Shown here one piece after another: positions 27,598-63,426 of a stretch of DNA of 64,000 nt. How positions within the stretch are numbered: the first letter of the stretch is position 1; each line of letters starts with the position of its first letter. The notes under the pieces are model-generated. The model saw only the letters and a list, made by a program, of their open reading frames with translations, was not told where the DNA came from and ran no database searches. The translations under genes and the position numbers were made by a program. Source of the DNA: Octopus vulgaris. Taxonomy: Eukaryota. The stretch covers positions 79,980,001 to 80,044,000 of the forward strand of contig OX597827.1 in the NCBI GenBank assembly GCA_951406725.2, in the 5' to 3' direction.

Positions 27598-27716
27598 TCA
27601 GTTAGTAATGACATCTGGTGTTGAAGGTAACTGTCTCTCTGGAGGTTTCACATATCTGTCTTGATACTGTTGTCTTTCAGGGTTCACTGGTGTATCCTGT
27701 TGGCTACCATAGATCC
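27598..27716 (-). CDS. Pcdh: Protocadherin A terminal coding exon (GIYGSQQDTP...PERQLPSTPDVITN*)
   Basis: Acceptor ttttgcag, phase 1 continues the frame to TGA at 27598-27600; recurs in all five units. Confidence 0.85.
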
Positions 27717-27884
27717 CTGCAAAACATTGTTTTAATGTAGCAATGTCTGAAACAATCACCATCATCAGAAATACTCTAGGGACACACAGACAGAACTAAT
27801 TACATCTCAGTCTACAACAATAATTAGTACAATAATTAGTAATGAATTACTGTAATATTAAATGAGAATGGATTGTTGTCCTAC

Positions 27885-28038
27885 CTGACATTGCTGGTAT
27901 TTCTTCATACTGTCTACTTGACCGCTCACTCCAGCACTGTCCACTGCTCTTACGACTGGTCAATGTGTCAGTGGGATAGTTAGAAGATGGTCTGTTGTCT
28001 CCATACGATGTCACCTCAATCGGTTGACTGTATTTCTG
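27885..28038 (-). CDS. Pcdh: Protocadherin A cytoplasmic exon (QKYSQPIEV...QYEEIPAMS, 154 nt)
   Basis: Acceptor aacag|CAG, open phase-0 frame matching the upstream donor, donor TCAG|GTAGG; same exon recurs in all five units. Confidence 0.85.
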
Positions 28039-29371
28039 CTGTTAAATACAATAGTAACCAGATATAATGCACAAATATCATTTGCGACTATCAATGCTAT
28101 ATCTAATATTGAATAATTTATCACAGTTTTGCCGTCAAATAACTTCAGTGCTGTAGCAGACAGGTGAGAGAGAGAGAGAGAGAGATTCTATAATTGGTCA
28201 GCCTTTGAACTAAATACACATTTATCTTTGCAAATATTATCTTAAATATTTAAAACAGGTTTGTGTTGAGGATTAATAAGATGTTATATATCCAAATATT
28301 TGTTTAAGGTCATTGTTTTGATAACAGCATTAACTAAATAAATTTCTGGAATATCTTCTGTGTTTCCAAATTTGTGACCATAAATTCAAAAACAAAATGC
28401 TAAATGTGTTCAAATTGATGAATCTTAGTTAAGCCCATCCTATCTTTCCTGCAGGTTGTGAAACTATACGTGTGGAATTGATTGTTGTCTACAATGCCTT
28501 CCTTTGCTCCAAGTAGAGAAGGTTCACTACAGGGATTTCACTTTGCATTGTCAGCCCAGTGTGAAGGCTGCTGCCACCAACAGAGATGCAGATACCAACC
28601 ATGTCTGTCCCAGAAGGGGGTAGACACTGAAAACATAACCAGAAGACAGTAATTCCCAGTCAGAAAAGAAGCAGCGGACGATGTCAAACAGAAGATATTG
28701 GTGACAAGAGTATTCGTTTGGCTAAAGTCATTTCAGGTAAATGGGTAAGTTGCCTGCAACAAGACACTCGTTAAAATGAGAAAAAAAAACAACAAAGAAT
28801 GCCTCAAATCTGATAGGGCTCATATAGATTGGCCCCCTTCATATAGGCAATCTTGCGGAGAAAACAGAGGAATAAAGTTGAAATGGTTCATATGTGACAG
28901 CAGTATTTATGTCAGATGTCAGCATTGATGTGAAGAGTAACTTGAAGAGAAATAATGGCAGTCTTCTTGACATCATCCAGCTAAATAATAATTAATTATC
29001 AACTATTTACAAGGGTTAAATCATATTCATTTCTACTATAGACACATGGCTATAATCTCTAATTTAGAGTATATTTAAATATACTGACCCTAGATTTTTA
29101 TTGTTTCCTTATCAATTAGTGAGGGGAGAAAGGAAGTGATCACCTCCACTAATTGCTCTAAACTGGAAAGAGTTGATGTTAAACTTGGTGACACATTCAG
29201 ATCTACAACCCCAGTAGGCTATGGTTAGATTTGAACTCAGAATATAAACAGCTGGTAAAAAATATTTCAAGCCATCCTCATCAATCAATCACTCATTCTA
29301 ATAGACCACTGACATGTACTTAGTTTTATTTTTGTCAAATACTCTCATAGTTTTCTAAAAATAATACTTAC

Positions 29372-31720
29372 CCTGGTTGATTTCTGGAGTGTTCTGTTCA
29401 TTGTAGACATCTTCCAGTCATCTGGATAGTAATGGCTCTTCGAATGACCATATCTGTCTGATATCTCTCCTCGATTACCTGACATCACAGACACACTGTT
29501 GTTACCTTGATAGATCAACTGTCTCATCTCATTGCGACATTGGTATGCCTGTTTCTCTTCTGCTGTTCTTTCAGATGAGCTATTTCTCACATTGTTACAT
29601 CTCACAATACACAGGGTTATAGAAACCACAATAGCTATAGATACTATCACAGCTGCTACTACAATGATAATCAACAATGTCGCATCTATTGTGTTATCAC
29701 TTGGTAGGTGCACAGCTGTGAACATTGGTGACGTCTTGTTACTAACAGTCAGTGTCAAAGACACACTAGTTGTTGCTGACAGAACTGGAGTACCACTGTC
29801 TTTCACAACAAACTCAAGCTTATATGATCCGGCATCATTTTGGTAAACTGTGCGAGAGTAAGATAACACACCAGTGAACGAATCCAGTTTAAATAACTGT
29901 CTCTCGTTACCTGAAACGATTTCATACCTGAGAAAAGCATTCATGTGACTGTCTATATCAGATGCTTTCAGAACTGTGATGTCGTTCTTACTTTGCGGAT
30001 GATAGTGGACATTAAGAGTGAAAGGGTCAACACTAGGAAATGTAAAATATGGAGCATTATCATTTCTATCCAATACTTCCACTTCAACATTCACTGTGTT
30101 ATTCAGAGATGGGCTTCCATTGTCTTTCACAAAAACCTCAAACTCATAGAAATCTCTGTGTTCTCTGTCTAAAGACTGGTTTGTTGAAATAAAGCCAGAG
30201 TTGATAATCTGGAATGGCAGACGATATTGCTGTTTATTTCTCAGAGAATAAGACAATTCACCTCCCTTACCAATATCTGGGTCTGTAGCATTGATAAAGC
30301 CAATAGGGAAATTAGCTTTGTCATTCTCATAGGTAAGGAACTTGAATGTGTCTTTCGTAAAGTGTGGTTCTACATCATTCACATCTAACACTTGGATTGA
30401 CAGATCTTTATCAGTTTTCAGAGCAGGTAATCCTTTATCTTCACACGACACAGTAAAGTGATAATGTTCCTGTGTCTCTCTGTCTACTGCTTTCTTTAGA
30501 ACTATTTTATATTCCTTCGATCCCATTGACTGTAGTTTGAATGTGTCATCTTTGATATGACAGTTCACCTGTCCATTGTGTCCAACATCATTGTCAGTGA
30601 CCATCACATAAGCAATGAAACTACCAACTTTGATGTCTTCCAGAATGGTAGCTGTGTTGTGATTCTGTGTAGAAATAAAGTTCACATCAATATTTGGGGG
30701 ATTGTTTTGTTGGTTGATGACATTTACCATAACAGTTGCTATGGAACTGAGGGGAGGTTTGCCACCATCTCTGGCTTCAATGTATAATTTAAATGATTTC
30801 TTCTTTTCTAAATTAGAATGTTTAGACTGGAATATTTCCCCTGATTGCTGTTCTATCCTAAAGTTGTTCATTGACTCTTTAGATGTTAATGAACTGATAT
30901 AATATGAAACTTTACCATTCTCTCCAATATCAGAGTCTTCTGCCAACATTACAACAACTGGTCTATTCCTTTGATGGTTATTTTGTATGGAGACATTGTA
31001 TGTTTTCTCAGAGAAAATTGGTCTGTTATCATTTTCATCTTTCACAGTTATGTGCACATTTAAGACACCCTGTTTGGGTGGATTGCCTCCATCCTTAGCA
31101 ATCACTTCTATATTATAGCTATCTTTCGTCTCCCTATCTAACTTTGCTTCTAAAACGATTTCTAATGATAGCAAACTATCTGCTATCTGAAATGTGGACA
31201 AAGAAAACTGTAGGTTATTTCCCTTCAATTCGTAATTCACTAATCTGTTCTGTAATCCAACATCTTTGTCAATCGCATTGGGAATCGATTGTTTTGTACC
31301 TTTACCTTCAGTTTCAGAATATTCCAGTTTAATTTCTTCGACAGGAAACTCTGGTTGATGGTCATTGATGTCTTCTATAATCACCTTAATTTTCAATATC
31401 TTTATAAATTTACCTGCTTTATGAACGGCTACCTTAATTGTGTGAAAGCATTCTTTCTCAAAAGTACACAGAGACTCAGCATCCAGTGTTTGTGTGGTGT
31501 ATATCTTCCCAGTGGTGGTCACATTAAACAGCTGTGTTCCCTTCTGTTGCAACTGACTGAACGATAATAATGCAGTGTCCTTTAACTGGGAATCAGCAGT
31601 AATGTCTCCTATGTTGATAACAGGACTGTTCTCTTCTTTCACATGGTAAACAATGTCTTTAGAGACAGAACAGTGAAGCAGAGACTGTAATATCCAAATC
31701 GCTATTAAGACCATCTTCAT
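29372..31720 (-). CDS. Pcdh: Protocadherin A, large coding exon (signal peptide, EC1-EC6, TM, proximal cytoplasmic tail; 783 codons)
   Basis: ORF with hydrophobic N-terminus, cadherin motifs (EDINDHQPEF, LDRE, DENDNRPIF, DVNDVEPHF, DRNDNAPYF), EC1 CX5C (CTFEKEC) and TM LLIIIVVAAVIVSIAIVVSITLCIV. Ends at phase-0 donor AGG|GTAAGT at 29372; acceptor TTTTCAG starts the exon at 31748. Confidence 0.95.
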
Positions 31721-33070
31721 TTGTTGAGTTTAATACCAGTCAATTGATCTGAAAATATAAAGGTACACAACTGCCAGTCACATTACAGAAACAAATAACA
31801 GATTTATAATATTTATTCTCTTAACCACAGCAAAATAAACATCTTTTTATTATATTAAATGTTTTCATTCTTTCTTGCTTTACCTTCATTAATCACAATA
31901 ATACCCAATATATTATATTTATAAAATGTGTAACGAAGCAGTATTAAGTTCATTATTGTTGCATAATTTACAGGAAGATGCGAGTTCTAATTTCCATCTT
32001 TGCTTCATTAACTAAACTTTAAAATACAATATTTTAAGCAGAATGTCACAGAATTCCAAGGAGCGATACTTGTTGTTTGTAAGAATGTTATATATGAAAT
32101 ATAAAGTATTTAATTGTCTTTTTAACTGATTTGGATAGATATTGGAGTGCTGTGATGTAACTGAGTGAAAAAAAACACAGCCAACCACCTCATCATGTAC
32201 AATCTATTTAATCACTCAAGTTAGATTTCATTCTTACCAGGAAATAAGAGAGAAGGACCATTGTAAATAATCCAAACTTTTCCTGATAAAGGATGAGTGT
32301 CTAGAGACATCAGAGTTAAGTAGACACAGAAACAGGAGATGATATGGAGAAGCTAGGCATGGAAGCTAAAAGATCTATGACTGTAGGGAGAAAGATTGAA
32401 ACACTTGCACCATAGATTGACTACTGAGAATTACAGCAAAATAATCTGCAAGGGCCATGGGATCTGAGTGACTCCCATTGAAACTGACGGTGACATGACG
32501 GCAGAATGATATAAAAGACAAAGAGACAGGCTTGGAAAACCCAGAAGGAAGGTGGTTGTAGGGAGCATTATCAAACAGCATGAAGGGTAGCTAGGCAAAC
32601 AGGTGTACATACTCAGCTCAGGGTAGGGCAGAAAAGAAGAAATTTGCACATGTTCTGCAACATAAGGATCAGCAACATGAAGTGTTGAGGATTGTAAGAC
32701 AATGTGAGTTAAAGAGAACTCAGATACCATTGGTGAGAAGTAAATTTGGAATTATGAAGGCACACTGGCCATTGCCATGGAAGATAAGAGACAAGGGAGT
32801 GCTTTTAGGAGAGGTTGTCGAATGTGGAGAATGGGGGGGGCTACTTCATGTTGAGCCTACAGAGGACCAGCAATTCAAGTTGACAGCAATGGTAAAGAAA
32901 TGAAGAGAAAGCAAGTTGTAGGGTCATCAAGGACAGATGTAGAGATGTCCAAGAGATCTGGTAAAGTAAGCTATATAGGATTACCACTTGGACAGGAAAT
33001 CAGGTTATACAATGACTGACATAACGGTATCACAGTGAACTGATACAAAAACAAAGGAGATGCCTTAGAG

Positions 33071-33601
33071 CAGGGGTTCCCAACTGATTTTTGGCCATGC
33101 CACACCGGATCATTTCTAAAATCCTGATGCCCTCTTTGTGATATTTAATTTTTGTTATTCAAAATTTGGTTAATGTTTACAATATTACCTGGAAACAAAA
33201 AAAAAAAAGAAAGAATAGTGCAACAGATGTAAAAAAATGTCTGGGAGGCACACATACGAGTTTACCTACGTTGTTTTCACATACCACTATATTGAAGGAA
33301 ATAATTTTATTCCCACTTTAGAGACATCAGATCTTATGAATAGAGCTGATGAAAATGCCATGACCTTGATGTCTCTAAAGTGTCAAATTTTAAATAACTT
33401 GATGTCTCTAAAGTGTCAAAAATTTAGTATACTTGTCCACAGAAGGGATGTAAAGAATTTTTTTTTTGTTAATAATTCATTCTCAAATTGCCTCTCTTTC
33501 TCTATTGAGATGCTAAACATTGAGTACAAAAGGTATAAGTTCAACATAACCCTACACATGCCTCACCAAAATATTACCATGCCCCACGTTGGGAATCACA
33601 A
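33071..33601. mobile_element. hAT-like non-autonomous element
   Basis: Begins CAGGGGTTCCCAAC and ends GTTGGGAATCAC (degenerate TIR). Confidence 0.5.
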
Positions 33602-33699
33602 GAGAAAATTACAGGGGAATAAAAAAAAAACTATGAAGGTTGCAGTGTGTCATAACATAATTGAGCCATAACAGAATATACTTAGAAGAGATGCAACTG

Positions 33700-37490: not shown

Positions 37491-37990
37491 CTTCATTGTG
37501 TGTAAAATCCTTTGTTGTATAAACTGTGACTTGGTCCCAATGTTCTGTTGTTAATGGTTGTCTGTGTCACTGCTGCTATGGTGTGACAATAGGCTTCATG
37601 TTGATGGAATAGTGTTGGTGGTGAGTCAGTGGGAACCAGCAGTTCCCTCTCAGTCTTCCTTTGTGGATGTGTGGTGTTTAGTGAGTGTGTGTGTGTGTGT
37701 GCATGTAAATGAGAGAGGGGGTGGGAGAGAAAGATGGGTGATGCTTGCTCCAGCATCACAAAGAAGAGGGAAAGGAAGGGAGAGAACAAACAATATCAGC
37801 TCCACTAACAGTCAGCCATAAGAAGTCTATATAACACCAACATGTCTGATGTGGAGAGAGAGAGAGAGACTGGCATAGATATATATATATATATTCAGTG
37901 TTTCATACGGATCTCATATTAACAAAACATCACTGATATTGGTAAATATATTACTAACAAATGATGTTAATATAGAACAGTTCTGGTTAA
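37491..37990 (-). promoter_or_regulatory. Putative promoter and non-coding exon 1 of protocadherin A
   Basis: Conserved block found upstream of each large exon, ending in a strong donor AAG|GTAAGT (37491/37490). Contains TGAGTCA (AP-1 consensus) and (GA)n/(CA)n tracts. TSS position unknown. Confidence 0.7.
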
Positions 37991-38487: not shown

Positions 38488-38606
38488 TCAGTTAGTAATG
38501 ACATCTGGTGTTGAAGGTAACTGTCTCTCTGGAGGTTTCACATATCTGTCTTGATACTGTTGTCTTTCGGGGTTCACTGGTGTATCCTGTTGGCTACCAT
38601 AGATCC
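38488..38606 (-). CDS. Pcdh: Protocadherin B terminal coding exon
   Basis: Copy of the 27598-27716 exon, TGA at 38488-38490. Confidence 0.85.
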
Positions 38607-38731: not shown

Positions 38732-38885
38732 CTGACATTGCTGGTATTTCTTCATACTGTCTACTTGACCGCTCACTCCAGCACTGTCCACTGCTCTTAC
38801 GACTGGTCAGTGTGTCAGTGGGATAGTGAGAAGACGGTCTGTTGTCTCCATAAGATGTCACCTCAATCGGTTGACTGTATTTCTG
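38732..38885 (-). CDS. Pcdh: Protocadherin B cytoplasmic exon (154 nt)
   Basis: Copy of the 27885-28038 exon with intact splice sites. Confidence 0.85.
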
Positions 38886-41032: not shown

Positions 41033-43381
41033 CCGTGTAGATTTCTGAAGTGTTCTGTTCATTGTAGACATCTTCCAGTCATCTGGATAGTAATGGCTCC
41101 TCGAATGACCATATCTGTCTGACATCTCTCCTCGATTACCTGACATCACAGGTACACTGTTGTTACCTTGATAGATCAACTGTCTCATCTCATTGCGACA
41201 TTGGTATGCCTGTTTCTCTTCTGCTGTTCTTTCAGATGAGCTATTTCTCACATTGTTACATCTCACAATACACAGGGTTATAGAAACCACAATAGCTATA
41301 GATACTATCACAGCTGCTACTACAATGATAATCAACAATGTCGCATCTATGGTGTTATCACTTGGTAGGTGCACAGCTGTGAACATTGGTGACGTCTTGT
41401 TACTAACAGTCAGTGTCAAAGACACACTAGTTGTTGCTGACAGAACTGGAGTACCACTGTCTTTCACAACAAACTCAAGCTCATATGATCCGGCATCATT
41501 TTGGTAAACTGTGCGAGAGTAAGATAACACACCAGTGAACGAATCCAGTTTGAATAACTGTCTCTCGTTACCTGAAACGATTTCATACCTGAGAAAAGCA
41601 TTCATGTGACTGTCTATATCAGATGCTTTCAGAACTGTGATGTCGTTCTTACTTTGCGGATGATAGTGGACATTAAGAGTGAAAGGGTCAACACTAGGAA
41701 ATGTAAAATATGGAGCATTATCATTTCTATCCAATACTTCCACTTCAACATTCACTGTGTTATTCAGAGATGGGCTTCCATTGTCTTTCACAAAAACCTC
41801 AAACTCATAGAAATCTCTGTGTTCTCTGTCTAAAGACTGGTTTGTTGAAATAAAGCCAGAGTTGATAATCTGGAATGGCAGACGATATTGCTGTTTATTT
41901 CTCAGAGAATAAGACAATTCACCTCCCTTACCAATATCTGGGTCTGTAGCATTGATAAAGCCAATAGGGAAATTAGCTTTGTCATTCTCATAGGTAAGGA
42001 ACTTGAATGTGTCTTTCGTAAAGTGTGGTTCTACATCATTCACATCCAACACTTGGATTGACAGATCTTTATCAGTTTTCAGAGCAGGTAATCCTTTATC
42101 TTCACACGACACAGTAAAGTGATAATGTTCCTGTGTCTCTCTGTCTACTGCTTTCTTTAGAACTATTTTATATTCCTTCGATCCCATTGACTGTAGTTTG
42201 AATGTGTCATCTTTGATATGACAGTTCACCTCTCCATTGTGTCCAACATCATTGTCAGTGACCATCACATAAGCAATGAAACTACCAACTTTGATGTCTT
42301 CCAGAATGGTAGCTGTGTTGTGATTCTGTGTAGAAATAAAGTTCACATCAATATTTGGAGGATTGTTCTGCTGGTTGATGACATTTACCATAACCGTTGC
42401 AATGGAACTGAGAGGAGGGTTGCCCCCATCTCTGGCTTCAATATACAATTTGAATGATTTCTTCTTCTGTAACTCAGAATGTTTGTTCAAGTAAAGCTCT
42501 CCCGAATCTGAATCTATTAAGAAATGATGTTTTGCATTTGTTGATGTTGTTGGACTGAAATGATAAAAAACTTTACCATTCTCTCCAATATCAGAATCTT
42601 TTGCCAACATGACAATAACTGGTATATTTCTTTGATGGTTACTTTGTATAGAGACATTGTATGTTTTATCAGAGAAAATTGGTCTGTTATCATTTTCATC
42701 TTCCACAGTTATGTGCACATTTAAGACACCCTGTTTGGGTGGAGTTCCTCCATCCTTAGCAATCACTTCTATATTATAGCTGTCTTTCGTCTCCCTGTCT
42801 AACTTCCCTTGTAATATAATTTCCAGAGATGATACTCCATCAGCTCTTTGGAATGTGGTCAATGAAAACTGTTGGTTATTTCCCTTCAATTCGTAATTCA
42901 CTAATCTGTTTTGTAATCCAACATCTTTGTCAATGGCATTGGGGATGGACTTTTTCCTACCTTTTCCATCTCCTTCTCTAAGCTCCAGTTTAATTTCTTC
43001 GACAGGAAACTCTGGTTGATGGTCATTGATGTCTTCTATAATCACCTTAATTTTCAAAATCTTTATAAATTTCCCTGCTTTATGAACTGCTACCTTAATT
43101 GTGTGAAAGCATTCTTTCTCAAAAGTACACAGAGACTCAGCATCCAGTGTTTGTGTGGTGTATATCTTCCCAGTGGTGGTCACATTAAACAGCTGTGTTC
43201 CCTTCTGTTGCAACTGACTGAACGATAATAATGCAGTGTCCTTTAACTGGGAATCAGCAGTAATGTCTCCTATGTTGATAACAGGACTGTTCTCTTCTTT
43301 CACATGGTAAACAATGTCTTTAGAGACAGAACAGTGAAGCAGAGACTGTAATATCCATATCGCTATTAAGACCATCTTCAT
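41033..43381 (-). CDS. Pcdh: Protocadherin B, large coding exon (783 codons)
   Basis: Near-identical paralogue of A. True ATG (MKMVL) at 43381, acceptor at 43410-43411, donor CGG|GTAAGT at 41033; same 2349-nt coding length. Confidence 0.95.
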
Positions 43382-43734
43382 TTGTTGAGTTAAATACCAG
43401 TTAATTAATCTGAAAATATAAAAGGTACACAACTGCCAGTCACATCATAGAAACCGTTTACATTATAGGATAGATTGTTAACTGAACTGTAATATGCAAT
43501 ATTTTAAATGGAATGTCAATGAGAATTTTACTTGTTATTTGCAAGAATGTTATTCTATGTGAAGTATAGAATATTTAACTGCATGCGCTATAGACTTGGA
43601 TAGATGTTATCTATATAGCATTCTCTGTAATTGTCATGTATTCAAACAGTGTAATGGGGAGCATAATTATTCTATGACACTTTAGATACAAGTAATTATA
43701 AAGGTGACAAGATACAAAGAATGACAGAGGTATC

Positions 43735-47311: not shown

Positions 47312-47830
47312 CTTCATTGTATGTAAAATCCTTTGTTGTATAAATTGTGACTTGGTCCCAATGTTCTGTTGTTAATGGTTGTCTGTGTCACTGCTGCTAT
47401 GGTGTGACAATGGCTTCATGTTGATGGAATAGTGTTGGTGGTGAGTCAGTGGGAACCAGCAGTTCCCTCTCAGTCTTCCTTTGTGGATGTGTGATGTTTA
47501 ATGAGTGTGTGTGTGTGCATATGCGTGTAAGAGAGAGAGAGAGAGAGGAGGGATGGGTGATGCTTGCTCCAGCCTCACACACACAAGATGCTGTGTTTCC
47601 CTCAAAGAGAAGAGAGAAAGAAAGAAAGAGAACAAACAATATCAGCTCCACTAACAGTCAGCCATAAGAAGTCCATATAATACCAACATGTCTGATGTGG
47701 AGAGAGAGAGAGAGAGAGAGAGAGACTGGCATAGATATTCAGTGTTTCATACGGATCTCATATTAACAAAACATCACTGATATTGGTAAATATATTACTA
47801 ACAAATGATGTTAATATAGAACAGTTCTGG
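47312..47830 (-). promoter_or_regulatory. Putative promoter and non-coding exon 1 of protocadherin B
   Basis: Copy of the same block with donor AAG|GTAAGT at 47312. Confidence 0.7.
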
Positions 47831-48278: not shown

Positions 48279-48397
48279 TCAGTTAGTAATGACATCTGGT
48301 GTTGAAGGTAACTGTCTCTCTGGAGGTTTCACATATCTGTCTTGATACTGTTGTCTTTCGGGGTTCACTGGTGTATCCTGTTGGCTACCATAGATCC
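48279..48397 (-). CDS. Pcdh: Protocadherin C terminal coding exon
   Basis: Copy of the conserved terminal exon, TGA at 48279-48281. Confidence 0.85.
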
Positions 48398-48555: not shown

Positions 48556-48709
48556 CTGACATTGCTGGAATTTCTTCATACTGTCTACTTGACCGCTCAC
48601 TCCAGCACTGTCCACTGCTCTTACGACTGGTCAATGTGTCAGTGGGATAGTTAGAGGATGGTCTGTTGTCTCCATAAGATGTCACCTCAATCGGTTGACT
48701 GTATTTCTG
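48556..48709 (-). CDS. Pcdh: Protocadherin C cytoplasmic exon (154 nt)
   Basis: Copy of the conserved exon with intact splice sites. Confidence 0.85.
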
Positions 48710-49930: not shown

Positions 49931-49989
<59 letters not shown>

Positions 49990-50541: not shown

Positions 50542-52890
50542 CCGTGTAGATTTCTGAAGTGTTCTGTTCATTGTAGACATCTTCCAGTCATCTGGATAGT
50601 AATGGCTCCTCGAATGACCATATCTGTCTGTCATCTCTCCTCGATTACCTGACATCACAGGTACACTGTTGTTACCTTGATAGATCAACTGTCTCATCTC
50701 ATTGCGACATTGGTATGCCTGTTTCTCTTCTGCTGTTCTTTCAGATGAGCTATTTCTCACATTGTTACATCTCACAATACACAGGGTTATAGAAACCACA
50801 ATAGCTATAGATACTATCACAGCTGCTACTACAATGATAATCAACAATGTTGCATCTATTGTGTTATCACTTGGTAGGTGCACAGCTGTGAACATTGGTG
50901 ACGTCTTGTTACTAACAGTCAGTGTCAAAGACACACTAGTTGTTGCTGACAGAACTGGAGTACCACTGTCTTTCACAACAAACTCAAGCTCATATGATCC
51001 GGCATCATTTTGGTAAACTGTGCGAGAGTAAGATAACACACCAGTGAACGAGTCCAGTTTAAATAACTGTCTCTCGTTACCTGAAACGATTTCGTACCTG
51101 AGAAAAGCATTCATGTGACTGTCTATATCAGATGCTTTCAGAACTGTGATGTCGTTCTTACTTTGCGGATGATAGTGGACATTAAGAGTGAAAGGGTCAA
51201 CACTAGGAAATGTAAAATATGGAGCATTATCATTTCTATCCAATACTTCCACTTCAACATTCACTGTGTTATTCAGAGATGGGCTTCCATTGTCTTTCAC
51301 AAAAACCTCAAACTCATAGAAATCTCTGTGTTCTCTGTCTAAAGACTGGTTTGTTGAAATAAAGCCAGAGTTGATAATCTGGAATGGCAGACGATATTGC
51401 TGTTTATTTCTCAGAGAATAAGACAATTCACCTCCCTTACCAATATCTGGGTCTGTAGCATTGATAAAGCCAATAGGGAAATTAGCTTTGTCATTCTCAT
51501 AGGTAAGGAACTTGAATGTGTCTTTCGTAAAGTGTGGTTCTACATCATTCACATCCAACACTTGGATTGACAGATCTTTATCAGTTTTCAGAGCAGGTAA
51601 TCCTTTATCTTCACACGACACAGTAAAGTGATAATGTTCCTGTGTCTCTCTGTCTACTGCTTTCTTTAGAACTATTTTATATTCCTTCGATCCCATTGAC
51701 TGTAGTTTGAATGTGTCATCTTTGATATGACAGTTCACCTCTCCATTGTGTCCAACATCATTGTCAGTGACCATCACATAAGCAATGAAACTACCAACTT
51801 TGATGTCTTCCAGAATGGTAGCTGTGTTGTGATTCTGTGTAGAAATAAAGTTCACATCAATATTTGGGGGATTGTTCTGCTGGTTGATGACGTTTACCAT
51901 AATGGTTGCTATGGAACTGAGAGGAGGGCTGCCACCATCTCTGGCTTCAATATATAATTTAAATGATTTCTTCTTTTCTAAATTAGAATGTTTAGACTGG
52001 AATATTTCCCCTGATTGCTGTTCTATCCTAAAGTTGTTCATTGAGTCTTTAGATGTTAAGGAACTGATATAATATGAAACTTTACCATTTTCTCCAATAT
52101 CAGAGTCTTTTGCCAACATGACAATAACCGGTATATTCCTTTGATGGTTACTTTGTATAGAGACATTGTATGTTTTATCAGAGAAAATTGGTCTGTTATC
52201 GTTTTCATCTTTCACAGTTATGTGCACATTTAAGACACCCTGTTTGGGTGGATTGCCTCCATCCTTAGCAATCACTTCTATATTATAGCTGTCTTTCGTC
52301 TCTCTGTCTAACTTTCCTTCTAAAACGATTTCTAAAGATAGCAAACTATCTGCTATCTGAAATGTGGACAAAGAAAACTGTTGGTTATTTCCCTTCAATT
52401 CATAATTCACTAATCTGTTCTGTAATCCAACATCTTTGTCAATCGCATTGGGGATGGACATTTTCATACCTACTCCATCACCTTCCTCAAAGGTTAATTG
52501 AATTTCTTCGACAGGAAACTCTGGTTGATGGTCATTGATGTCTTCTATAATCACCTTAATTTTCAATATCTTTATAAATTTGCCTGCTTTATGAACTGCT
52601 ACCTTAATTGTGTGAAAGCATTCTTTCTCAAAAGTACACAGAGACTCAGCATCCAGTGTTTGTGTGGTGTATATCTTCCCAGTGTTGGTCACATTAAACA
52701 GCTGTGTTCCTTTCTGTTGCAACTGACTGAACGATAATAATGCAGTGTCCTTTAACTGGGAATCAGCAGTAATGTCTCCTATGTTGATAACAGGACTGTT
52801 CTCTTCTTTCACATGGTAAACAATGTCTTTAGAGACAGAACAGTGAAGCAGAGACTGTAATATCCATATCGCTATTAAGACCATCTTCAT
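50542..52890 (-). CDS. Pcdh: Protocadherin C, large coding exon (783 codons)
   Basis: Near-identical paralogue; acceptor at 52919-52920, donor CGG|GTAAGT at 50542. Confidence 0.95.
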
Positions 52891-54850
52891 TTGTTGAGTT
52901 AAATGCGAGTTAATTAATCTGAAATTATGAGAGAAAAATGTCTTTCATATGTGAAGAAACAATAAAATATCGTTGGTAAAACGTAGAAATATAATATGTA
53001 AAACATGAAAAGCAACTTAGAATGGTCTGTAGTGTGGAATAGTATATCGGTGGAGGGGAAATGGTTGCACCCATAACTTAGCAGAGCATGAAGATGAGTT
53101 TGCCTGATGCAGGTCAAAGGCAGGAGAACGGTAGGATGCATCAGAGTTTAGGAGAGAAACAAATAAGAATATTTGTTAATATTATGGCTTGATTTGAGAG
53201 GAGGTGCACAGCTGGCTGAATCTATGAAGCAGAATCACATCTGTATGCATATCACTGATATGATTTACATTACACTGTCATTTACTGCAACAGTTCCATT
53301 GTGTTAATGGTTGTGTCCATGCTGGAGCACAATAAGTAACAACTATAGATGTTACCTTGGCAATTATCAAAATTTAACTATTAAAGAGAGACATTAAATG
53401 ATGGTGGTGGTGGTGATGGTCCAGATATGTCTCCATGATTCGATGTAGTTTCATCAAATTCTTTTAAAATGACTGAATTCAGCCATACCACACTTACCTA
53501 ATAACGTCACTTAGTACTGTTCCAATCTGATATACAATAGTATATTATATAAAATACTTTTAAAGATAATTTCTTAAACCAAAATTAAAATAACATTATC
53601 TTCTCTTGATAATGTTGACTGTTAAATTATTCTAGGAAATTTTCTGTACATTGAAATCAGTTAAATTACTGCAGAAACATGAATATTGATATTTCACCAA
53701 TGGTATAATCAGCAGAAGTATTAGTACTATGAATAAATATTCAAAAAAATAAGATATATAAATGAAATGGATTGATAAAATACATTTACAGTATATTTAT
53801 ATCAAATATATTATTATTTTTACTATTATCATTATTATTATTATGATTATTATTATTATTATGATTATTATTATTATTATGATTATTATTATTATTATGA
53901 TTATTATTATTTATTATTTATTGTGATTTAATGCAATCTTAGTATACTCTGACCTATATGACAAAAGACAAAAACGAATCAAGGGTAGCTATATTTCTTA
54001 AGCTACCAATAGTTATCATCATCATCATCATCATTTAACGTCCGCTTTCCATGCTGGCATGGGTTGGACTATAATATATTAATAATAATTCATTTGTATA
54101 TAGTTTTTAAGAAACAAATTGCCTTCAACAAGAGATTTTTTAAGTCAATGAAGGAAGGAAAATACAACTGGGATAAGATACACATAAATCTATAAAGCAA
54201 TATTTAATTAAAATATATATTTATAAACAAGACCAATATGATACTATTTCACCTTAAAGGCAGCAAATACATTAAAACCAATAAAATCTGATACAATATT
54301 AAATTTAGAAAGACTTAAATAATACCACAACACAATATTGATTATTTATGTTGACACTAAACCACCATCTTGTCAACTGTTCTCCCAGTTTCACTTTAAT
54401 ATTTTATATTAATATAACCTATTCTTACATATAAACACAATAATGATACTTTTGACTCTCTGAAAACATCCTTCACAAGAAACACTCAAATTCTTTTTTT
54501 AAATACACACAATAAAGAACATCTTCTGGTTATATATTATACATTATCAATACTGATAATAATATGAAGATGTCTGCAAATAAGAGACAACAAACTGACT
54601 GGATTTAAATATATTTCACTTGAAAAATAACCATAATTAAATATTATTTCACATTTCCTAACAGCAAAATATCAATCATGAACATATAAATCTCAACAGA
54701 AAGCGTGTAACTGGCAAAGACCATCTTTAAATGTCTACTGACATAATTTCTATTTGTTATATTCTATAGTAAAAGATGGCTGAAGAAAGTTTCTACAACA
54801 ATCATCAGTCAAATGTCTTAATAATACCAAATAAACATTCATAGACTTAC

Positions 54851-55380
54851 CTTCATTGTGTGTAAAATCCTTTGTTGTATAAACTGTGACTTGGTCCCAA
54901 TGTTCTGTTGTTAATGGTTGTCTGTGTCACTGCTGCTATGGTGTGACAATGGCTTCATGTTGATGGAATAGTGTTGGTGGTGAGTCAGTGGGAACCAGCA
55001 GTTCCCTCTCAGTCTTCCTTTGTGGATGTGTGATGTTTAGTGAGTGTGTGTGTGTGTGTGTGCATATGCGTGTAAGAGAGAGAGAGAGAGAGAGAGGGAG
55101 GATGGGTGATGCTTGCTCCAGCCTCACACACACAAGATGCTGTGTTTCCCTCAAAGAGAAGAGGGAAAGAAAGAAAGAGAACAAACAATATCAGCTCCAC
55201 TAACAGTCAGCCATAAGAAGTCCATATAATACCAACATGTCTGATGTGGAGAGAGAGAGAGAGACTGGCATAGATATATATATATATTCAGTGTTTCATA
55301 CGGATCTCATATTAACAAAACATCACTGATATTGGTAAATATATTACTAACAAATGATGTTAATAAAGAAAAGTTCTGGT
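54851..55380 (-). promoter_or_regulatory. Putative promoter and non-coding exon 1 of protocadherin C
   Basis: Copy of the same block with donor at 54851. Confidence 0.7.
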
Positions 55381-55814
55381 TAAGATGTGTCTGACCTAAA
55401 TATACACCCAACCTATAATGGAGGATGTAGGAACAAATAGAGAAGGGATATTCTAATTTTCAGGCAGGTTTATTTTGGTATAATTTTTAAATATAATTTC
55501 CTAAGTCTTAGATTTTAAAAACACTGTTGTAAAAAATAGAGAAATATATTTTAAATGTATTCTAATTTAATTTTAGAGATATTTGGGAAATATCATAAAT
55601 ATTATGCAAAATTCCTCTCTGTGCATGTGTGTGTGCACGTGTGTGTGTGTGTTGCTGACTTCATTATTAGTGTGTATGTATTATATCATATGTTTGGTAT
55701 ATAATATTGTAACTGTAAGGTAAAGAGAAAACTTCTGCATTTGTTTAAATTTGTATGTGTGTGTTGATGGAAATGTCATTGTAAAGGGTCAATATTTAGT
55801 TAAATGACCATTGG

Positions 55815-55933
55815 TCAGTTAGTAATGACATCTGGTGTTGAAGGTAACTGTCTCTCTGGAGGTTTCACATATCTGTCTTGATACTGTTGTCTTTCGGGGT
55901 TCACTGGTGTATCCTGTTGGCTACCATAGATCC
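55815..55933 (-). CDS. Pcdh: Protocadherin D terminal coding exon
   Basis: Copy of the conserved terminal exon, TGA at 55815-55817. Confidence 0.85.
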
Positions 55934-56091
55934 CTGCAAAACATTGTTTTAATGTAGCAATGTCTGAAACAATTATCATCATCAGAAATACTCTAGGGAC
56001 ACACAGACAGAACTAATTACATCTCAGAGTATACAACAATAATTAGTAATGAATTACTGTAATATTAAATGAGAATGGATTGTTGTCCTAC

Positions 56092-56245
56092 CTGACATTG
56101 CTGGTATTTCTTCATACTGTCTGCTTGACCGCTCACTCCAGCACTGTCCACTGCTCTTACGACTGGTCAGTGTGTCAGTGGGATAGTGAGAAGATGGTCT
56201 GTTGTCTCCATAAGATGTCACCTCAATCGGTTGACTGTATTTCTG
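56092..56245 (-). CDS. Pcdh: Protocadherin D cytoplasmic exon (154 nt)
   Basis: Copy of the conserved exon with intact splice sites. Confidence 0.85.
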
Positions 56246-57493
56246 CTGTAAAATATTATTGTATCCAGTTATAACAAAATGACGTGCCTCTGTAATCTAA
56301 AATATGCTTAGTACAAAATTCTAAAAGAAACAGATTTAACTGTCACATAGGTAATAATATCACTATATCATCTAAATATATTTTACATGTTTCTTTATTA
56401 AACAATTGTTTATGAAATAATTCAGAAACTCATTTTGCCACAATCCACAATGAATGCGAATAACGTCACACATACACCATGAGAAGGGATATACGAAGGT
56501 GTTTTCATAACAAATATTGATCAAATATTAATAGAAATTCATAAAGAGAAAATTATTGGTGAGATACTTTCAGAAGTCTTTGGATGTTTTGTAATAGGAA
56601 ACAACATTGCCAGTGACTTGCAGTTGAAATGATGCTATATAAGACTGTTCTTAAAAGTGCCATGTATTTACATAGCAGCTTTCATATCTTATTAAATATT
56701 AATACAGTGAATCTATTAGCAATTCATTTTCATTCTCTGTCCACAGTTACTTGTATGGTGAACCAGCTGTTATTACCTGAGATTAGAGATATGATTTCCA
56801 ACTATACTATGTGGTCAATGTCAGTTGTTGCTTGGAATATTTAACACATGAGCAAGTATTGCAGCTAACATGAAGTCAGATCTGTCATCCAGTTTGAGAA
56901 TATGTGTCAACTTAAATTTCTCAAGTTCTTGGAAGAGCTCTTGGTATTCAGACAGAACCCACACCAACAGAAAATGAAGGGCTGAAATACTGTTATTGAT
57001 ATTCATCAATGGTAAAACTTTACAACTTGTTCAATTCAAGAGGGAATCTTTCAATCAGGATATATACAGACGTTACTGTGTGATTTTTTTCCCACTTTCC
57101 TACAAAGTGTACCCTGTAAGCAAATCAGCATTCAATTTGTTCACAAACTATACAATGTATGGAACATTAGATGAATGTCTACATTTATCTAGCAGAATGA
57201 CCTTTATCAAGATTCAAATGGTTAACAAATGTCTTCCACTATCAGAATATGGTTTCAGAAAGAGTTAGTAGTTTACGATGCGTTGCATATTGTGTACTAT
57301 AACTTTTAATCGACAATCTTTTCTACGAAATGATCTTCTTTCATAACAATTCTGCTTAAGCAATAACAATGAAAAATGACATAATTTAGCAGTTGTAATT
57401 CATACAACATTACATTTATCCAGAGATGAAACAAATTAGGCATTTAATTTGGAGATTATTTACTTGAAGATGTTTACTGGAAATAGAGCTTAC

Positions 57494-59842
57494 CTTTGTA
57501 GATTTCTGAAGTGTTCTGTTGATTGTAGACATCTTCCAGTCATCTGGATAGTAATGGCTCCTCGAATGACCGTATCTGTCTGACATCTCTCCTCGATTAC
57601 CTGACATCACAGGTACACTGTTGTTACCTTGATAGATCAACTGTCTCATCTCATTGCGACATTGGTAGGCCTGTTTCTCTTCTGCTGTTCTTTCAGATGA
57701 GCTATTTCTCACATTGTTACATCTCACAATACACAGGGTTATAGAAACCACAATAGCTATAGATACTATCACAGCTGCTACTACAATGATAATCAACAAT
57801 GTCGCATCTATTGTGTTATCACTTGGTAGGTGCACAGCTGTGAACATTGGTGACGTCTTGTTACTAACAGTCAGTGTCAAAGACACACTAGTTGTTGCTG
57901 ACAGAACTGGAGTACCACTGTCTTTCACAACAAACTCAAGCTCATATGATCCGGCATCATTTTGGTAAACTGTGCGAGAGTAAGATAACACACCAGTGAA
58001 CGAATCCAGTTTAAATAACTGTCTCTCGTTACCTGAAACGATTTCATACCTGAGAAAAGCATTCATGTGACTGTCTATATCAGATGCTTTCAGAACTGTG
58101 ATGTCGTTCTTACTTTGCGGATGATAGTGGACATTAAGAGTGAAAGGGTCAACACTAGGAAATGTAAAATATGGAGCATTATCATTTCTATCCAATACTT
58201 CCACTTCAACATTCACTGTGTTATTCAGAGATGGGCTTCCATTGTCTTTCACAAAAACCTCAAACTCATAGAAATCTCTGTGTTCTCTGTCTAAAGACTG
58301 GTTTGTTGAAATAAAGCCAGAGTTGATAATCTGGAATGGCAGACGATATTGCTGTTTATTTCTCAGAGAATAAGACAATTCACCTCCCTTACCAATATCT
58401 GGGTCTGTAGCATTGATAAAGCCAATAGGGAAATTAGCTTTGTCATTCTCATAGGTAAGGAACTTGAATGTGTCTTTCGTAAAGTGTGGTTCTACATCAT
58501 TCACATCCAACACTTGGATTGACAGATCTTTATCAGTTTTCAGAGCAGGTAATCCTTTATCTTCACACGACACAGTAAAGTGATAATGTTCCTGTGTCTC
58601 TCTGTCTACTGCTTTCTTTAGAACTATTTTATATTCCTTCGATCCCATTGACTGTAGTTTGAATGTGTCGTCTTTGATATGACAGTTCACCTCTCCATTG
58701 TGTCCAACATCATTGTCAGTGACCATCACATAAGCAATGAAACTACCAACTTTGATGTCTTCCAGAATGGTAGCTGTGTTGTGATTCTGTGTAGAAATAA
58801 AGTTCACATCAATATTTGGAGGATTGTTCTGCTGGTTGATGACATTTACCATAACAGTTGCTATGGAACTGAGAGGAGAGTTACCACCATCTCTGGCTTC
58901 AATGTATAATTTAAATGATTTCATTTTGTCAAATTGCGATTCTTTGGCTAAGAATATTTCTCCAGTTTTCTCATTTATAATAAAATTATCTTTTGAATCT
59001 GTTGATGTTGTTGGGCTGATATAATATGAAACTTTACCATTTTCTCCAATATCAGAGTCTTCTGCTATCATTACAACAACTGGTCTATTTCTTTGATGGT
59101 TATTTTGTATGGAGACATTGTATGTTTTCTCAGAGAAAATTGGTCTGTTATCATTTTCATCTTCCACAGTTATGTGCACATTTAAGACACCCTGTTTGGG
59201 TGGAGTTCCTCCATCCTTAGCAATCACTTCTATATTATAGCTGTCTTTCGTCTCTCTGTCTAACTTCCCTTGTAATATAATTTCAAGAAATGATACTCCG
59301 TCTGCTCTTTTGAATGTGGACAAAGAAAACTGTTGGTTATTTCCCTTCAATTCGTAATTCACTAATCTATTCTGTAATCCAACATCTTTGTCAATGGCAT
59401 TGGGAATCGATTGTTTTGTACCTTTCCCATCTGCTTCTCTAAATTCCATCTTAATTTCTTCGACAGGAAACTCTGGTTGATGGTCATTGATGTCTTCTAT
59501 AATCACCTTAATTTTCAATATCTTTATAAATTTACCTGCTTTATGAACGGCTACCTTAATTGTGTGAAAGCATTCTTTCTCAAAAGTACACAGAGACTCA
59601 GCATCCAGTGTTTGTGTGGTGTATATCTTCCCAGTGTTGGTCACATTAAACAGCTGTGTTCCCTTCTGTTGCAACTGACTGAACGATAATAATGCAGTGT
59701 CCTTTAACTGTGAATCAGCAGTAATGTCTCCTATGTTGATAACAGGACTGTTCTCTTCTTTCACATGGTAAACAATGTCTTTAGAGACAGAACAGTGAAG
59801 CAGAGACTGTAATATCCAAATCGCTATTAAGACCATCTTCAT
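57494..59842 (-). CDS. Pcdh: Protocadherin D, large coding exon (783 codons)
   Basis: Near-identical paralogue; acceptor at 59871-59872, donor AAG|GTAAGC at 57494. Confidence 0.95.
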
Positions 59843-62032
59843 TTGTTGAATAAAATACCAGTCAATTGATCTGAAAATAAAAAAGGTACACCACTGGCAT
59901 TCAGATCATGGAAAACATCAAGAGATCAATGATATTTACTCTATTTACTCTATTAACCACATTGAAATAAATATCTTTTTATTGTATTAAATGTTTCTAT
60001 CTCTTCCTGCTTTACCTCTAGGTATTCCAATAATATTCACTATATTATTGATGATGATGAAGATGACAATGATGATAGTATAATTGTGAAATCTTTAATA
60101 AACCCTTATTAGCATTCATTATCATTTTTCAAAGGAGTGTGACTTTCTTGCTGTATGAGGAGACCATTCAGTTAGAGACAAGCAACCCAGTACATCAAAG
60201 GATGATACAGTGTCTGGCATTAAAACTATTTAAAACAGATTTAACTGAGGGACGACATTATATATTGAAAACCTGGAGAATCACCAGGAAAGGAAATACA
60301 ATAATGGTGTATTCCTCTCTATAATAAATAATGTTTCCATATTACCATATAAATGTTAAAACTCATGGAGGAATTTAAGCAAAGATTTTCAAGTAAATTA
60401 AGAAGCAGAACGTCTGTGGGTCATGGTGAATATATATATATATTTCACACAATAACTTCATATTTATCTGAGATACAAAATTTTGGGAAAAAGTTAAAAT
60501 CACCAGAGAAACAATGATCAAAAGGGTTTTCAATGAAGAGGTCATATTAAGTTAGAGTAATGACAACTGCATGATAAAATACAGAGTGACCAGAATAAAG
60601 AAAAGAAGAGACTTTCAGTCAATATTCAATTCAAATTTTGGCACAAGGCCAGTAGTTTAGGGGGGGGGGGATAAGTCAGTTACATCAACCCAAGTACTCT
60701 ACTGGTACTTATTTTATCGATCCTGAAAGGAGAAAAAGCCAAGTTGACATTGGTAGAATTTCAACTAAGAACGTAAAAACAGACAAAATGCTGTTAGGCA
60801 TTTTACCTGGTGCACGAATGGTTCTGCATGTTTGCCATCTTCTTTGCAGGAAATTCTGATCATTAACCTTCATTTGTTTGCAAATATTCTTATCATTTCA
60901 AAGCATCAGTTATGGAAATTCTTATTAAAAATATTCTTTTCTACTCTAGGCACAAGGCACGAAATTTTTGGGGAGGGGGCCAGTTGATTAGATTGCTCCC
61001 AAGAGGTGACTGGTACTTAATTTATCTTCCTCGAAAGCATGAAAAGTAAAGTCAACCTCAGCAGAATTTAGACTTAGAATGTAAAGCCATGAAATACTGC
61101 TAAGCATTTTGCCCGGTGTGCTAATGTATCTGCCAACTCATTGCCTTTCTTATAAAAACTATTGAGACGTAAAAACTGGCAAGATTGTATTCATTATATA
61201 TATGCAATGCACTTTTATTCTCTTTCATAAACAAATGACAAAAAGAGAATAAAAATACAATTACGATATTATTTAAATGAAATAACACATTTTACAATAA
61301 ATATAATTCCCTGGATGAATAAAATTTCACAGAAATATCTAATAACAGAAAAGCTCTTTTAGCAACACAGCAAATCTAAATAATACCAGATTTAATTAAA
61401 AGATATTCATTAAACAAGACCAAAATTGGACACTGTTTCAGTATGAATACAACAAACAGATTAAAACCTATAAAATTTTATATTAAATTTAGAAAGACTT
61501 AAATAATATCACAACACAATATTGATTATTTATGTTGACACTAAACCACCATCTTGTCAACTGTTCTCCCAGTTTCACTTTAATATTTTATATTAATATA
61601 ACCTATTCTTACATATAAACACAATAATGATACTTGACTCTCTCAAAACATCCTTCACAAGAAACACTCAGATTCTTTTTTTAAATACACACAATAAAGA
61701 ACATCTTCTGGTTATATATTATACATTATCAATACTGATAATAATAGGAAGATGTCTGCAAATAAGAGACAACAAACTGACTGGATTTAAATATATTTCA
61801 CTTGGAAAAAAACCATAATTAAATATTATTTCACACTTCCTAACAGCAAAATATCAATCATGAACATATAAATCTCAACAGAAAGCGTGTAACTGGCAAA
61901 GACCATCTTTAAATGTCTACTGACATAATTTCTATTTGTTATATTCTATAGTAAAAGATGGCTGAAGAAAGTTTCTACAACAATCATCAGTCAAATATCT
62001 TAATAATACCAAATAAACATTCATAGACTTAC

Positions 62033-62550
62033 CTTCATTGTGTGTAAAATCCTTTGTTGTATAAACTGTGACTTGGTCCCAATGTTCTGTTGTTAATGGT
62101 TGTCTGTGTCACTGCTGCTATGGTGTGACAATGGCTTCATGTTGATGGAATAGTGTTGGTGGTGAGTCAGTGGGAACCAGCAGTTCCCTCTCAGTCTTCC
62201 TTTGTGGATGTGTGGTGTTTAGTGAGTGTGTGTGTGCAAATGCGTGTAAGAGAGAGAGAGAGAGAGGAGGGATGGGTGATGCTTGCTCCAGCCTCACACA
62301 CACAAGATGCTGTGTTTCCCTCAAAGAGAAGAGGAAAGAAAGAAAGAGAACAAACAATATCAGCTCCACTAACAGTCAGCCATAAGAAGTCCATATAACA
62401 CCAACATGTCTGATGTAGAGAGAGAGAGAGAGAGACTGGCATAGATATATATATATTCAGTGTTTCATACGGATCTCATATTAACAAAACATCACTGATA
62501 TTGGTAAATATATTACTAACAAATGATGTTAATATAGAACAAGTTCTGGT
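62033..62550 (-). promoter_or_regulatory. Putative promoter and non-coding exon 1 of protocadherin D
   Basis: Copy of the same block with donor at 62033. Confidence 0.7.
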
Positions 62551-62997
62551 TAAGATGTGTCTGACCTAAATATACACCCAACCTATAATGGAGGATGCAG
62601 GAACAAATAGAGAAGGGATATTCTAATTTTCAGGCAGGTTTATTTTGGTATCATTTTTAAATATAATTTCCTAAGTCTTAGATTTTAATAACACTGCTGT
62701 AAAAAATAGAGAAATATATTTTAAATATATTCTAATTTAATTTTAGATATATTTGAGAAATTTCATAAATATTATGCAAAATTCCTGTGTGTGTGTGTGT
62801 ATTTATGGATACAAGTTGAAATCTGTCTGACTTCCAGTTAGTGTGTATGTATTGTATAGTATGCTGATATATAATATTGTAATTGTGAGGTAAAGATAAA
62901 ACGTCTGTATTTTTTTAAACTTGTATGAGTGTGTGGTTAGAGGTTCGTATTTGAAATGGTATTGGTAAGGGGTCAATATTTAGTAAATGACCAGTGG

Positions 62998-63116
62998 TCA
63001 GTTAGTAATGACATCTGGTGTTGAAGGTAACTGTCTCTCTGGAGGTTTCACATATCTGTCTTGATACTGTTGTCTTTCGGGGTTCACTGGTGTATCCTGT
63101 TGGCTACCATAGATCC
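62998..63116 (-). CDS. Pcdh: Protocadherin E terminal coding exon
   Basis: Fifth copy of the terminal exon, TGA at 62998-63000. Confidence 0.8.
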
Positions 63117-63272
63117 CTGCAAAACATTGTTTTAATGTAGCAATGTCAGAAACAATCACCATCATCAGAAATACTCTAGGGACACACAGACAGAACTAAT
63201 TACATCTCAGTCTACAACAATAATTAGTAATGAATTACTGTAATATTAAATGAGAATGGATTGTTGTCCTAC

Positions 63273-63426
63273 CTGACATTGCCGGTATTTCTTCATACTG
63301 TCTACTTGACCGCTCACTCCAGCACTGTCCACTGCTCTTCCGACTGGTCAGTGTGTCAGTGGGATAGTTAGAGGATGGTCTGTTGTCTCCATAAGATGTC
63401 ACCTCAATCGGTTGACTGTATTTCTG
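63273..63426 (-). CDS. Pcdh: Protocadherin E cytoplasmic exon (ectodomain exon presumably beyond the window)
   Basis: Fifth copy of the 154-nt exon with intact splice sites. Confidence 0.8.

What the first reader, a model, noticed from the sequence alone, without database searches (positions are those of the whole stretch)
27598..63426. Every unit carries its own near-identical copy of the 'constant' cytoplasmic exons
Seen: five intact copies of a 154-nt and a 119-nt exon, one pair per unit. Vertebrate alpha and gamma clusters instead splice variable exons to one shared set of constant exons. Inference: the same variable-ectodomain/constant-tail output is reached here by duplication plus homogenisation, and short-read transcriptomes would misread this as shared exons. 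All donors are phase 0 and all acceptors equivalent, so splicing between units (for example ectodomain D to tail C, or exon 1 to a distal ectodomain) would remain in frame.
Basis: partly seen in the sequence, partly recalled or inferred. Interest (0 to 1): 0.7.

Follow-up and report, generated by a model that had tools for sequence, protein, structure and literature searches.

The report
Octopus protocadherins with copy-edited constant halves
A row of 24 octopus nerve-cell adhesion genes each carries its own tail exons, and the genes are nearly identical everywhere except the outer recognition domains, most likely because DNA is repeatedly copied between them; whole-gene duplication with such copying is already in print for cephalopods, and what is added here is where the copying starts and stops.

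Summary
Observation confirmed: five intact 154-nt/119-nt tail-exon pairs, one per unit. They end a 24-unit, minus-strand octopus protocadherin array; all 24 units have their own tails. The headline (full-gene duplication, no shared final exons, gene conversion) is stated in Albertin 2022 (PMC9068888). Added here: the constant part is far larger than the tail. Synonymous divergence is 0.50-0.58 in EC1-EC3, but 0.00-0.03 in EC4-TM. The tail exon and a non-coding exon 1 stay 97-98% identical between subfamilies whose flanking introns are at shuffled level. Argonauta copies carry their own fixed residues in EC4-tail but pair with Octopus orthologs in EC1-EC3: concerted evolution, as in fugu. Corrections: the 154-nt exon's donor is phase 1, exon 1 is non-coding, and the window's five tails differ by one residue, so cross-splicing would change little. 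Cross-unit splicing is untested; public O. sinensis models do join one ectodomain to three tail versions, real or artefact. The scan noted a similar pattern in another genome (e1-9545755).

The parts
63273..63426 (-). Tail exon T1 of unit E (array unit 20), 154 nt; its ectodomain exon lies beyond the window end
62998..63116 (-). Tail exon T2 of unit E, 119 nt to stop
62033..62215 (-). Predicted non-coding exon 1 of unit D (5' end is an alignment anchor, not a mapped start); GTAAG donor
   Evidence: no RNA evidence
57494..59870 (-). Big exon of unit D: signal peptide, EC1-EC6, TM, juxtamembrane part; near-constant from about 58817 down
56092..56245 (-). T1 of unit D (SSHY)
55815..55933 (-). T2 of unit D
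54851..55033 (-). Predicted exon 1 of unit C
50542..52918 (-). Big exon of unit C; near-constant from about 51865 down
48556..48709 (-). T1 of unit C (SSNY)
48279..48397 (-). T2 of unit C
47312..47494 (-). Predicted exon 1 of unit B
41033..43409 (-). Big exon of unit B; near-constant from about 42356 down
38732..38885 (-). T1 of unit B (SSHY)
38488..38606 (-). T2 of unit B
37491..37674 (-). Predicted exon 1 of unit A
29372..31748 (-). Big exon of unit A; near-constant from about 30695 down
27885..28038 (-). T1 of unit A (SSNY)
27598..27716 (-). T2 of unit A, last unit of the array
26728..26899 (-). Orphan exon-1 copy (97% identical) with no ectodomain exon after it
26290..26400 (-). Decayed T2-like exon with an in-frame stop
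25450..25631 (-). Second orphan exon-1 copy (99% identical)

Best explanation
This is the end of a tandem array of 24 complete octopus protocadherin genes, each with its own tail exons, in which DNA-level gene conversion most likely keeps EC4-EC6, the membrane helix, the cytoplasmic part and a predicted non-coding first exon nearly identical while EC1-EC3 stay distinct. Shown: the anatomy, the divergence profile, the drop in identity at exon edges, and lineage-specific fixed residues in the constant part. Inferred: conversion needs long homology, so it persists where selection keeps exons alike and dies where introns have drifted; selection removes conversions that erase EC2/EC3 identity. Inferred by analogy with vertebrate clustered protocadherins: EC1-EC3 (with EC4) would give each isoform its own trans-recognition surface, the common EC5-EC6 would allow mixed cis-dimers, and the common tail would signal the same way, likely by docking a Src-type kinase through a YEEI motif (T1) and an RxLPxxP motif (T2). 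Each gene likely splices mainly to its own tail.
For: Anatomy: 24 of 24 units in 464 kb have own T1 and T2 with AG/GT ends; 21 of 24 give an open spliced frame, 3 have frameshifts in the big exon. A DNA search of the genome with the tail region gave 41 matches, all on C14 79.99-80.22 Mb (lower bound), so no distant shared copy was seen. Divergence (21 intact units, 210 pairs): pS EC1 0.50, EC2 0.58, EC3 0.52, EC4 0.027, EC5 0.000, EC6 0.032, TM 0.015, juxtamembrane 0.14, T1 0.17, T2 0.28; a 332-nt run is invariant in 23 of 23 units compared (unit 4 left out). Between 13 upstream and 7 downstream units exon 1 is 97.8% and T1 97.0% identical while six intron flanks are 50-58% (shuffled within-group baselines 52-57%). 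Concerted evolution: 21 own vs 24 Argonauta hians proteins show 0 lineage-diagnostic columns in 334 of EC1-EC3 and 21 in 503 of EC4-T1; the EC1-EC3 tree pairs Octopus and Argonauta genes (SH-aLRT 99-100 at four nodes), the EC4-T1 tree puts 23 of 24 Argonauta proteins in one clade (100). Recombination: 405 of 903 site pairs fail the four-gamete test (20 units); T1, exon 1 and EC4-TM distances do not follow array position (rho 0.00, 0.05, -0.13) whereas EC1-3 does (0.54). DNA-level: a 2140-nt block with introns, spacer and exon 1 is 96% identical between units C and E. GC3 is 0.25-0.29 in EC2/3 and 0.35-0.42 in EC4-T1. Local tails in use: units 14 and 16 have their own divergent T2 types that resemble those of Argonauta P0023 and P0033 (by eye). 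Motifs: YEEI in 21 of 21 and [RK]xLPxxP in 20 of 21 own tails; YEEI in 42 of 85 more distant octopod protocadherins against 0.09 expected after shuffling.
Against: No transcript or read evidence was obtained, so exon 1 and within-unit splicing are predicted. Public O. sinensis models join one identical 787-aa big-exon product to three different T1 versions (5 proteins, 6 accessions), which does not fit strict within-unit splicing if real. T1 and the juxtamembrane part are less homogenised (pS 0.14-0.17) than EC4-TM, T2 falls into subfamily types (75% between groups) and unit 16's T1 has escaped, so 'constant tail' holds only within subfamilies. GC3 in EC1 (0.38) is as high as in the constant part. 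Both trees are quick searches without bootstrap; only 1 branch of the EC4-T1 tree is strongly supported. pN/pS in EC2/EC3 is about 0.3-0.4 overall; no site test for positive selection was run. Adhesion and Src docking are untested analogies; [RK]xLPxxP is in only 17 of 85 more distant proteins.
Confidence: 0.82

Rival explanations
1. Hybrid locus: besides local splicing, read-through transcripts regularly splice one ectodomain exon to the tail of a downstream unit, or one exon 1 to a distal ectodomain, as a regulated layer.
For: Big-exon donors are phase 0 and T1 donors phase 1 throughout, so joins stay in frame. Only 589-1359 nt separate a stop from the next exon 1. O. sinensis RefSeq-type models give the unit-1 ortholog three T1 versions, one (DSRPSSN) found in our array only in the next unit. 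PMC9712504 reports read-through fusions in PCDH annotation.
Against: The same models arise if short reads are misplaced among 97%-identical exons; the same annotations hold implausible 2-5-unit fusion proteins of 1718-4439 aa. No unit of 24 has lost its tail or its splice sites although flanking introns diverged. AATAAA/ATTAAA occurs in 22 of 24 spacers (weak in AT-rich DNA). Within the window a swap changes at most one residue.
Confidence: 0.15
2. No ongoing conversion: recent duplications plus strong purifying selection keep the constant part alike.
For: Units 19-24 and 2-14 are young groups in EC1 (pS 0.04-0.07); some neighbours share intron lengths (units 3/4, 10/12).
Against: pS is 0.000 in EC5 and about 0.03 in EC4/EC6 between genes whose EC1-EC3 have pS 0.6-0.7 in the same exon; Argonauta-specific residues are fixed across subfamilies older than the split of the two genera.
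Confidence: 0.03
3. Conversion is templated by reverse-transcribed mRNA, which would explain exon-limited identity.
For: Identity falls within about 10 nt of T1 and T2 splice sites in the upstream units; the non-coding exon 1 is also homogenised.
Against: No co-conversion across the intron: last 100 nt of the big exon vs T1 rho -0.02 (p 0.54), whereas T1 follows its adjacent intron end (rho 0.33, p 0.002; 22 units, 36 tests). No intron loss in 24 units. Intron-spanning 92-96% blocks exist in the window. The boundary at EC3/EC4 lies inside an exon.
Confidence: 0.07
4. Assembly artefact: collapsed or over-polished repeats, or haplotypes laid in tandem.
For: Three units carry frameshifts that may be base errors; polishing could erase a few differences in EC5.
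Against: All 24 T1 copies are distinct and sit in unrelated introns; the same variable/constant split is seen in 24 Argonauta and 7 O. sinensis proteins from other assemblies.
Confidence: 0.03

Closest known systems
Coleoid protocadherin sub-arrays (Albertin et al. 2022, PMC9068888; Styfhals et al. 2019, PMC6339937)
   Same: Head-to-tail multi-exon genes on octopus chromosome 14; diversity by full gene duplication, not by splicing to shared final exons; homogenisation by gene conversion suggested. This array is likely one of the sub-arrays they describe (inference).
   Different: The passages I read give no domain- or exon-level map of the conversion, no cross-genus test, and nothing on tail copies or exon 1.
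Fugu and zebrafish clustered protocadherins, regional gene conversion (PMC1852091, citing Noonan 2004)
   Same: Divergent EC1-EC3, discrete boundary at EC4 or EC5, about 99% identity downstream, higher GC3 in the converted part.
   Different: There the cytoplasmic constant exons are one shared set; here the small tail exons and a 5' UTR exon are separate copies homogenised across unrelated introns. The two expansions are independent.
Mammalian Pcdh-alpha/gamma and Pcdh-beta clusters (review PMC7811963)
   Same: One large exon for signal peptide, 6 EC, TM and juxtamembrane part; EC2/EC3 most diverse; beta genes are complete tandem genes.
   Different: Alpha/gamma splice to one set of three constant exons; beta genes are single-exon with no constant tail. 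The octopus units have a non-coding exon 1 and two private tail exons.

Membership tests
Protocadherin, coleoid clustered type | Six cadherin repeats with a protocadherin-type EC1, TM and cytoplasmic tail | tested here: met
   Pfam Cadherin and Cadherin_2 hits; best homologs are octopod protocadherins, 92% O. sinensis
Protocadherin, coleoid clustered type | Head-to-tail array of complete multi-exon genes | tested here: met
   24 of 24 units with own T1 and T2, same strand
Protocadherin, coleoid clustered type | Homogenisation by gene conversion | tested here: met
Protocadherin, coleoid clustered type | Neural expression of these genes | not tested
   No reads were laid; family-level neural enrichment is from PMC6339937 and PMC9712504
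Vertebrate Pcdh-alpha/gamma variable-constant locus | One shared set of constant exons downstream of many variable exons | tested here: not met
   Each unit has its own tail; no distant copy among 41 matches
Vertebrate Pcdh-alpha/gamma variable-constant locus | Variable exons spliced to non-adjacent constant exons in transcripts | tested here: inconclusive
   Only automated models of a relative, which cannot tell real joins from misplaced reads
Vertebrate Pcdh-alpha/gamma variable-constant locus | CTCF-bound promoter element and stochastic promoter choice | not tested
   Conserved blocks upstream of exon 1 seen; no motif scan run
Vertebrate Pcdh-alpha/gamma variable-constant locus | Isoform-specific homophilic binding through EC1-EC4 (works-like question) | not testable with these tools
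   Diversity sits in EC1-EC3 as in vertebrates; binding not assayed
Vertebrate Pcdh-beta cluster | Single-exon genes with no constant tail | tested here: not met
   Four predicted exons per unit

The most novel reading that the evidence does not exclude
The array is a two-way combinatorial locus: conversion has made every exon 1 and every first tail exon interchangeable, and read-through transcripts really do splice an ectodomain to downstream units' tails (including the different T2 types of units 14-18) or one promoter to several ectodomains, so cephalopods use cross-gene splicing on top of gene duplication, against the statement in PMC9068888.
Probability: 0.15. Interest if true: 0.72.

Novelty: new variant of a known kind. 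Interest (0 to 1): 0.4.

Why it matters
It shows that octopuses reached the vertebrate design (variable EC1-EC3, common cis-dimer and signalling parts) a second time by a different genomic route, with the conversion boundary at the same domain as in fugu. It names the domains to swap in adhesion assays and two candidate signalling motifs. It also warns that short-read and 3'-tag counts for these genes, and public gene models, are unreliable across most of the transcript. The main idea is not new.

Tried and rejected
Sequencing-run search: no RNA holder listed; only contig-type runs, and no reads were laid on the locus, so there is no transcript evidence either way. Albertin 2015 and Wang & Ragsdale 2017 are not held; they may already describe the exon layout and tail motifs. 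The supplement search of PMC9068888 covered 1 small text file with no hit; its supplementary figures were not seen. Literature searches found no paper mapping conversion by domain or testing cross-unit splicing in cephalopods. Pfam gives no family for the tail. The careful EC1-EC3 tree did not finish; the quick tree is used. Rows left out of trees: 5 of 58 proteins (mis-joined or partial models, or likely the same genes as ours) and the 3 frameshifted own units. Rejected: mRNA-templated conversion, selection alone, assembly collapse (see rivals). Ungapped exon-1 profiles are distorted by small indels; aligned identities are used instead. One search picked wrong donors for two units; replace it. 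One search used wrong acceptors for units 1 and 17, corrected. No structure or complex prediction was run.
Full report
Setting. The window is G000:C14:79,980,001-80,044,000. It holds four minus-strand ORFs of about 800 codons that are six-repeat protocadherins. Best homologs are octopod protocadherins (O. sinensis 92%, Argonauta hians up to 84%), and proteins labelled O. vulgaris match several units at 100% in EC2-EC3.

Observation. The five 154-nt (T1) and 119-nt (T2) exons are present at the stated limits with AG/GT ends, differ by 2-5 and 0-1 nt, and give 92-aa tails that differ only by N/H. The T1 donor is phase 1. Exon 1 (about 183 nt, GTAAG donor) is predicted non-coding: its last ATG gives a 4-codon uORF in the window's units and is in frame with the main ORF in only 3 of 22 units with a correctly placed acceptor.

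Extent. I fetched 400 kb of flanks. The array has 24 units over about 216 kb; each has its own T1 and T2. 21 of 24 give an open spliced frame; units 4, 8 and 17 have frameshifts in the big exon. All 41 genome matches to the tail region lie in this locus (a lower bound). T2 comes in types: one in 14 units (1-13, 17), one in 7 (18-24), and single types in units 14, 15, 16. Stop to next exon 1 is 589-1359 nt.

The constant part is larger than the tail. Over 210 pairs of intact units pS is 0.50, 0.58 and 0.52 in EC1-EC3, then 0.027, 0.000, 0.032 and 0.015 in EC4, EC5, EC6 and TM, 0.14 in the juxtamembrane part, 0.17 in T1 and 0.28 in T2. The switch lies inside the big exon at the start of EC4, about 1324 nt before the donor, and 332 nt are invariant in 23 of 23 units compared. 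Among the four window genes EC1 is also alike (pS 0.05) and only EC2/EC3 differ (0.28, 0.33). Between the two main subfamilies exon 1 is 97.8% and T1 97.0% identical, but intron flanks are 50-58%, the shuffled level. Selection on protein cannot hold synonymous sites at zero.

Concerted evolution. With 24 Argonauta proteins, EC1-EC3 has 0 lineage-diagnostic columns in 334 and EC4-T1 has 21 in 503. The EC1-EC3 tree pairs unit 16 with P0033, unit 18 with P0022, unit 1 with P0031 and units 19-24 with P0002/P0003 (SH-aLRT 99-100), so the subfamilies predate the split of the genera. The EC4-T1 tree groups 23 of 24 Argonauta proteins (100). Unit 18 is 79% identical to its ortholog and 60% to its paralogs in EC1-EC3, but 93% and 98% in EC4-juxtamembrane. 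Both are quick trees; 5 of 58 rows were dropped. 405 of 903 site pairs fail the four-gamete test, and T1, exon 1 and EC4-TM distances are unrelated to array position. The data favour DNA-level conversion over an mRNA template: no correlation across intron 2 (rho -0.02), no intron loss, and intron-spanning blocks such as 2140 nt at 96% between units C and E.

Likely function (inferred). In vertebrate clustered protocadherins EC2/EC3 set trans specificity and the membrane-proximal domains make cis contacts (PMC7811963, PMC10084454, passages). The octopus profile fits that division. The tail holds YEEI in 21 of 21 and [RK]xLPxxP in 20 of 21 intact units; YEEI recurs in 42 of 85 more distant octopod protocadherins against under 0.1 expected. 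Phospho-YEEI binds Src-family SH2 with raised affinity and an R-x-L-P-x-L-P peptide binds the SH3 (PMC4140816, passages); reading RxLPxxP as a class I SH3 motif is recalled. Docking of a Src-type kinase is a hypothesis.

Cross-unit splicing. I obtained no transcript data. Public O. sinensis models attach three T1 versions to one identical 787-aa big-exon product of the unit-1 ortholog (XP_036365169-174); one version matches our unit 2 only. That these accessions are one gene is inferred from their numbering. PMC9712504 (passages) says read-through PCDH fusions were corrected by hand. Against a large role: no unit has lost its tail or splice sites, unit-specific T2 types resemble those of Argonauta counterparts, and a swap among window tails changes one residue. 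I put regular, meaningful cross-splicing at about 15%.

What is known. PMC9068888 (passages) states that cephalopods do not splice multiple first exons to shared final exons, that diversity arose by full gene duplication, and that arrays show homogenisation by gene conversion. PMC6339937 (parts 1-2 of 5) notes very similar clustered sequences and octopus-specific motifs from Albertin 2015. PMC1852091 (passages) shows the same EC1-EC3 versus EC4/5-onward split in fugu. Albertin 2015 and Wang & Ragsdale 2017 were not available, and most supplements were not seen. Searches found no domain- or exon-level map for cephalopods. PMC7339444 gave only reference-list hits. Earlier scan notes describe a similar pattern in another genome and a neighbouring array; they are unchecked and not counted as support.

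Verdict. Real and well supported; headline known; the conversion map, the homogenised separate exons and the cross-genus proof are a modest addition. Interest 0.4.

Noticed in passing
T1 acceptors, e.g. window 56245; unit 15 at extended coordinate 106314: The T1 acceptor is a tandem CAG|CAG site. Seven pairs of O. sinensis models differ only by that one Gln; unit 15 has lost the first AG and keeps the second in frame.
   Followed up: partly
window 26899-25450: After the last unit: exon-1 copy, decayed T2-like exon, second exon-1 copy, i.e. a unit that seems to have lost its big exon and T1. The next intact protocadherin exon is about 62 kb further on (L-loci, extended coordinate -37028); one orphan exon 1 may serve it.
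   Followed up: partly
window 9774-9707 and just left of the window start (-77 to -325, -5635): Further relics: a T2 fragment (82%), a 97.6%-identical piece of the big exon's 3' part, and a decayed exon 1; signs of birth-and-death at the array edge.
   Followed up: no
about 150-300 nt upstream of each exon 1, e.g. window 62420-62280: Two short conserved blocks between microsatellites in nearly all 24 spacers, candidate promoter elements; exon 1 also holds a conserved 15-codon uORF.
   Followed up: no
units 4, 8, 17 (extended coordinates about 214665, 178188, 91.7 kb): Single-base frameshifts in the big exon; pseudogenes or base errors in the assembly, not resolved.
   Followed up: partly
EC2/EC3 of units 2-14 and 19-24: Variable positions look like a patchwork of short shared blocks rather than a tree, suggesting conversion also shuffles the variable domains (by eye).
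   Followed up: no
public proteins P0130, P0141, P0147, P0149, P0153, P0156: Automated annotations of three Octopus species fuse 2-6 units into single proteins of 1718-4439 aa, so gene counts for this array from such annotations are unreliable.
   Followed up: partly
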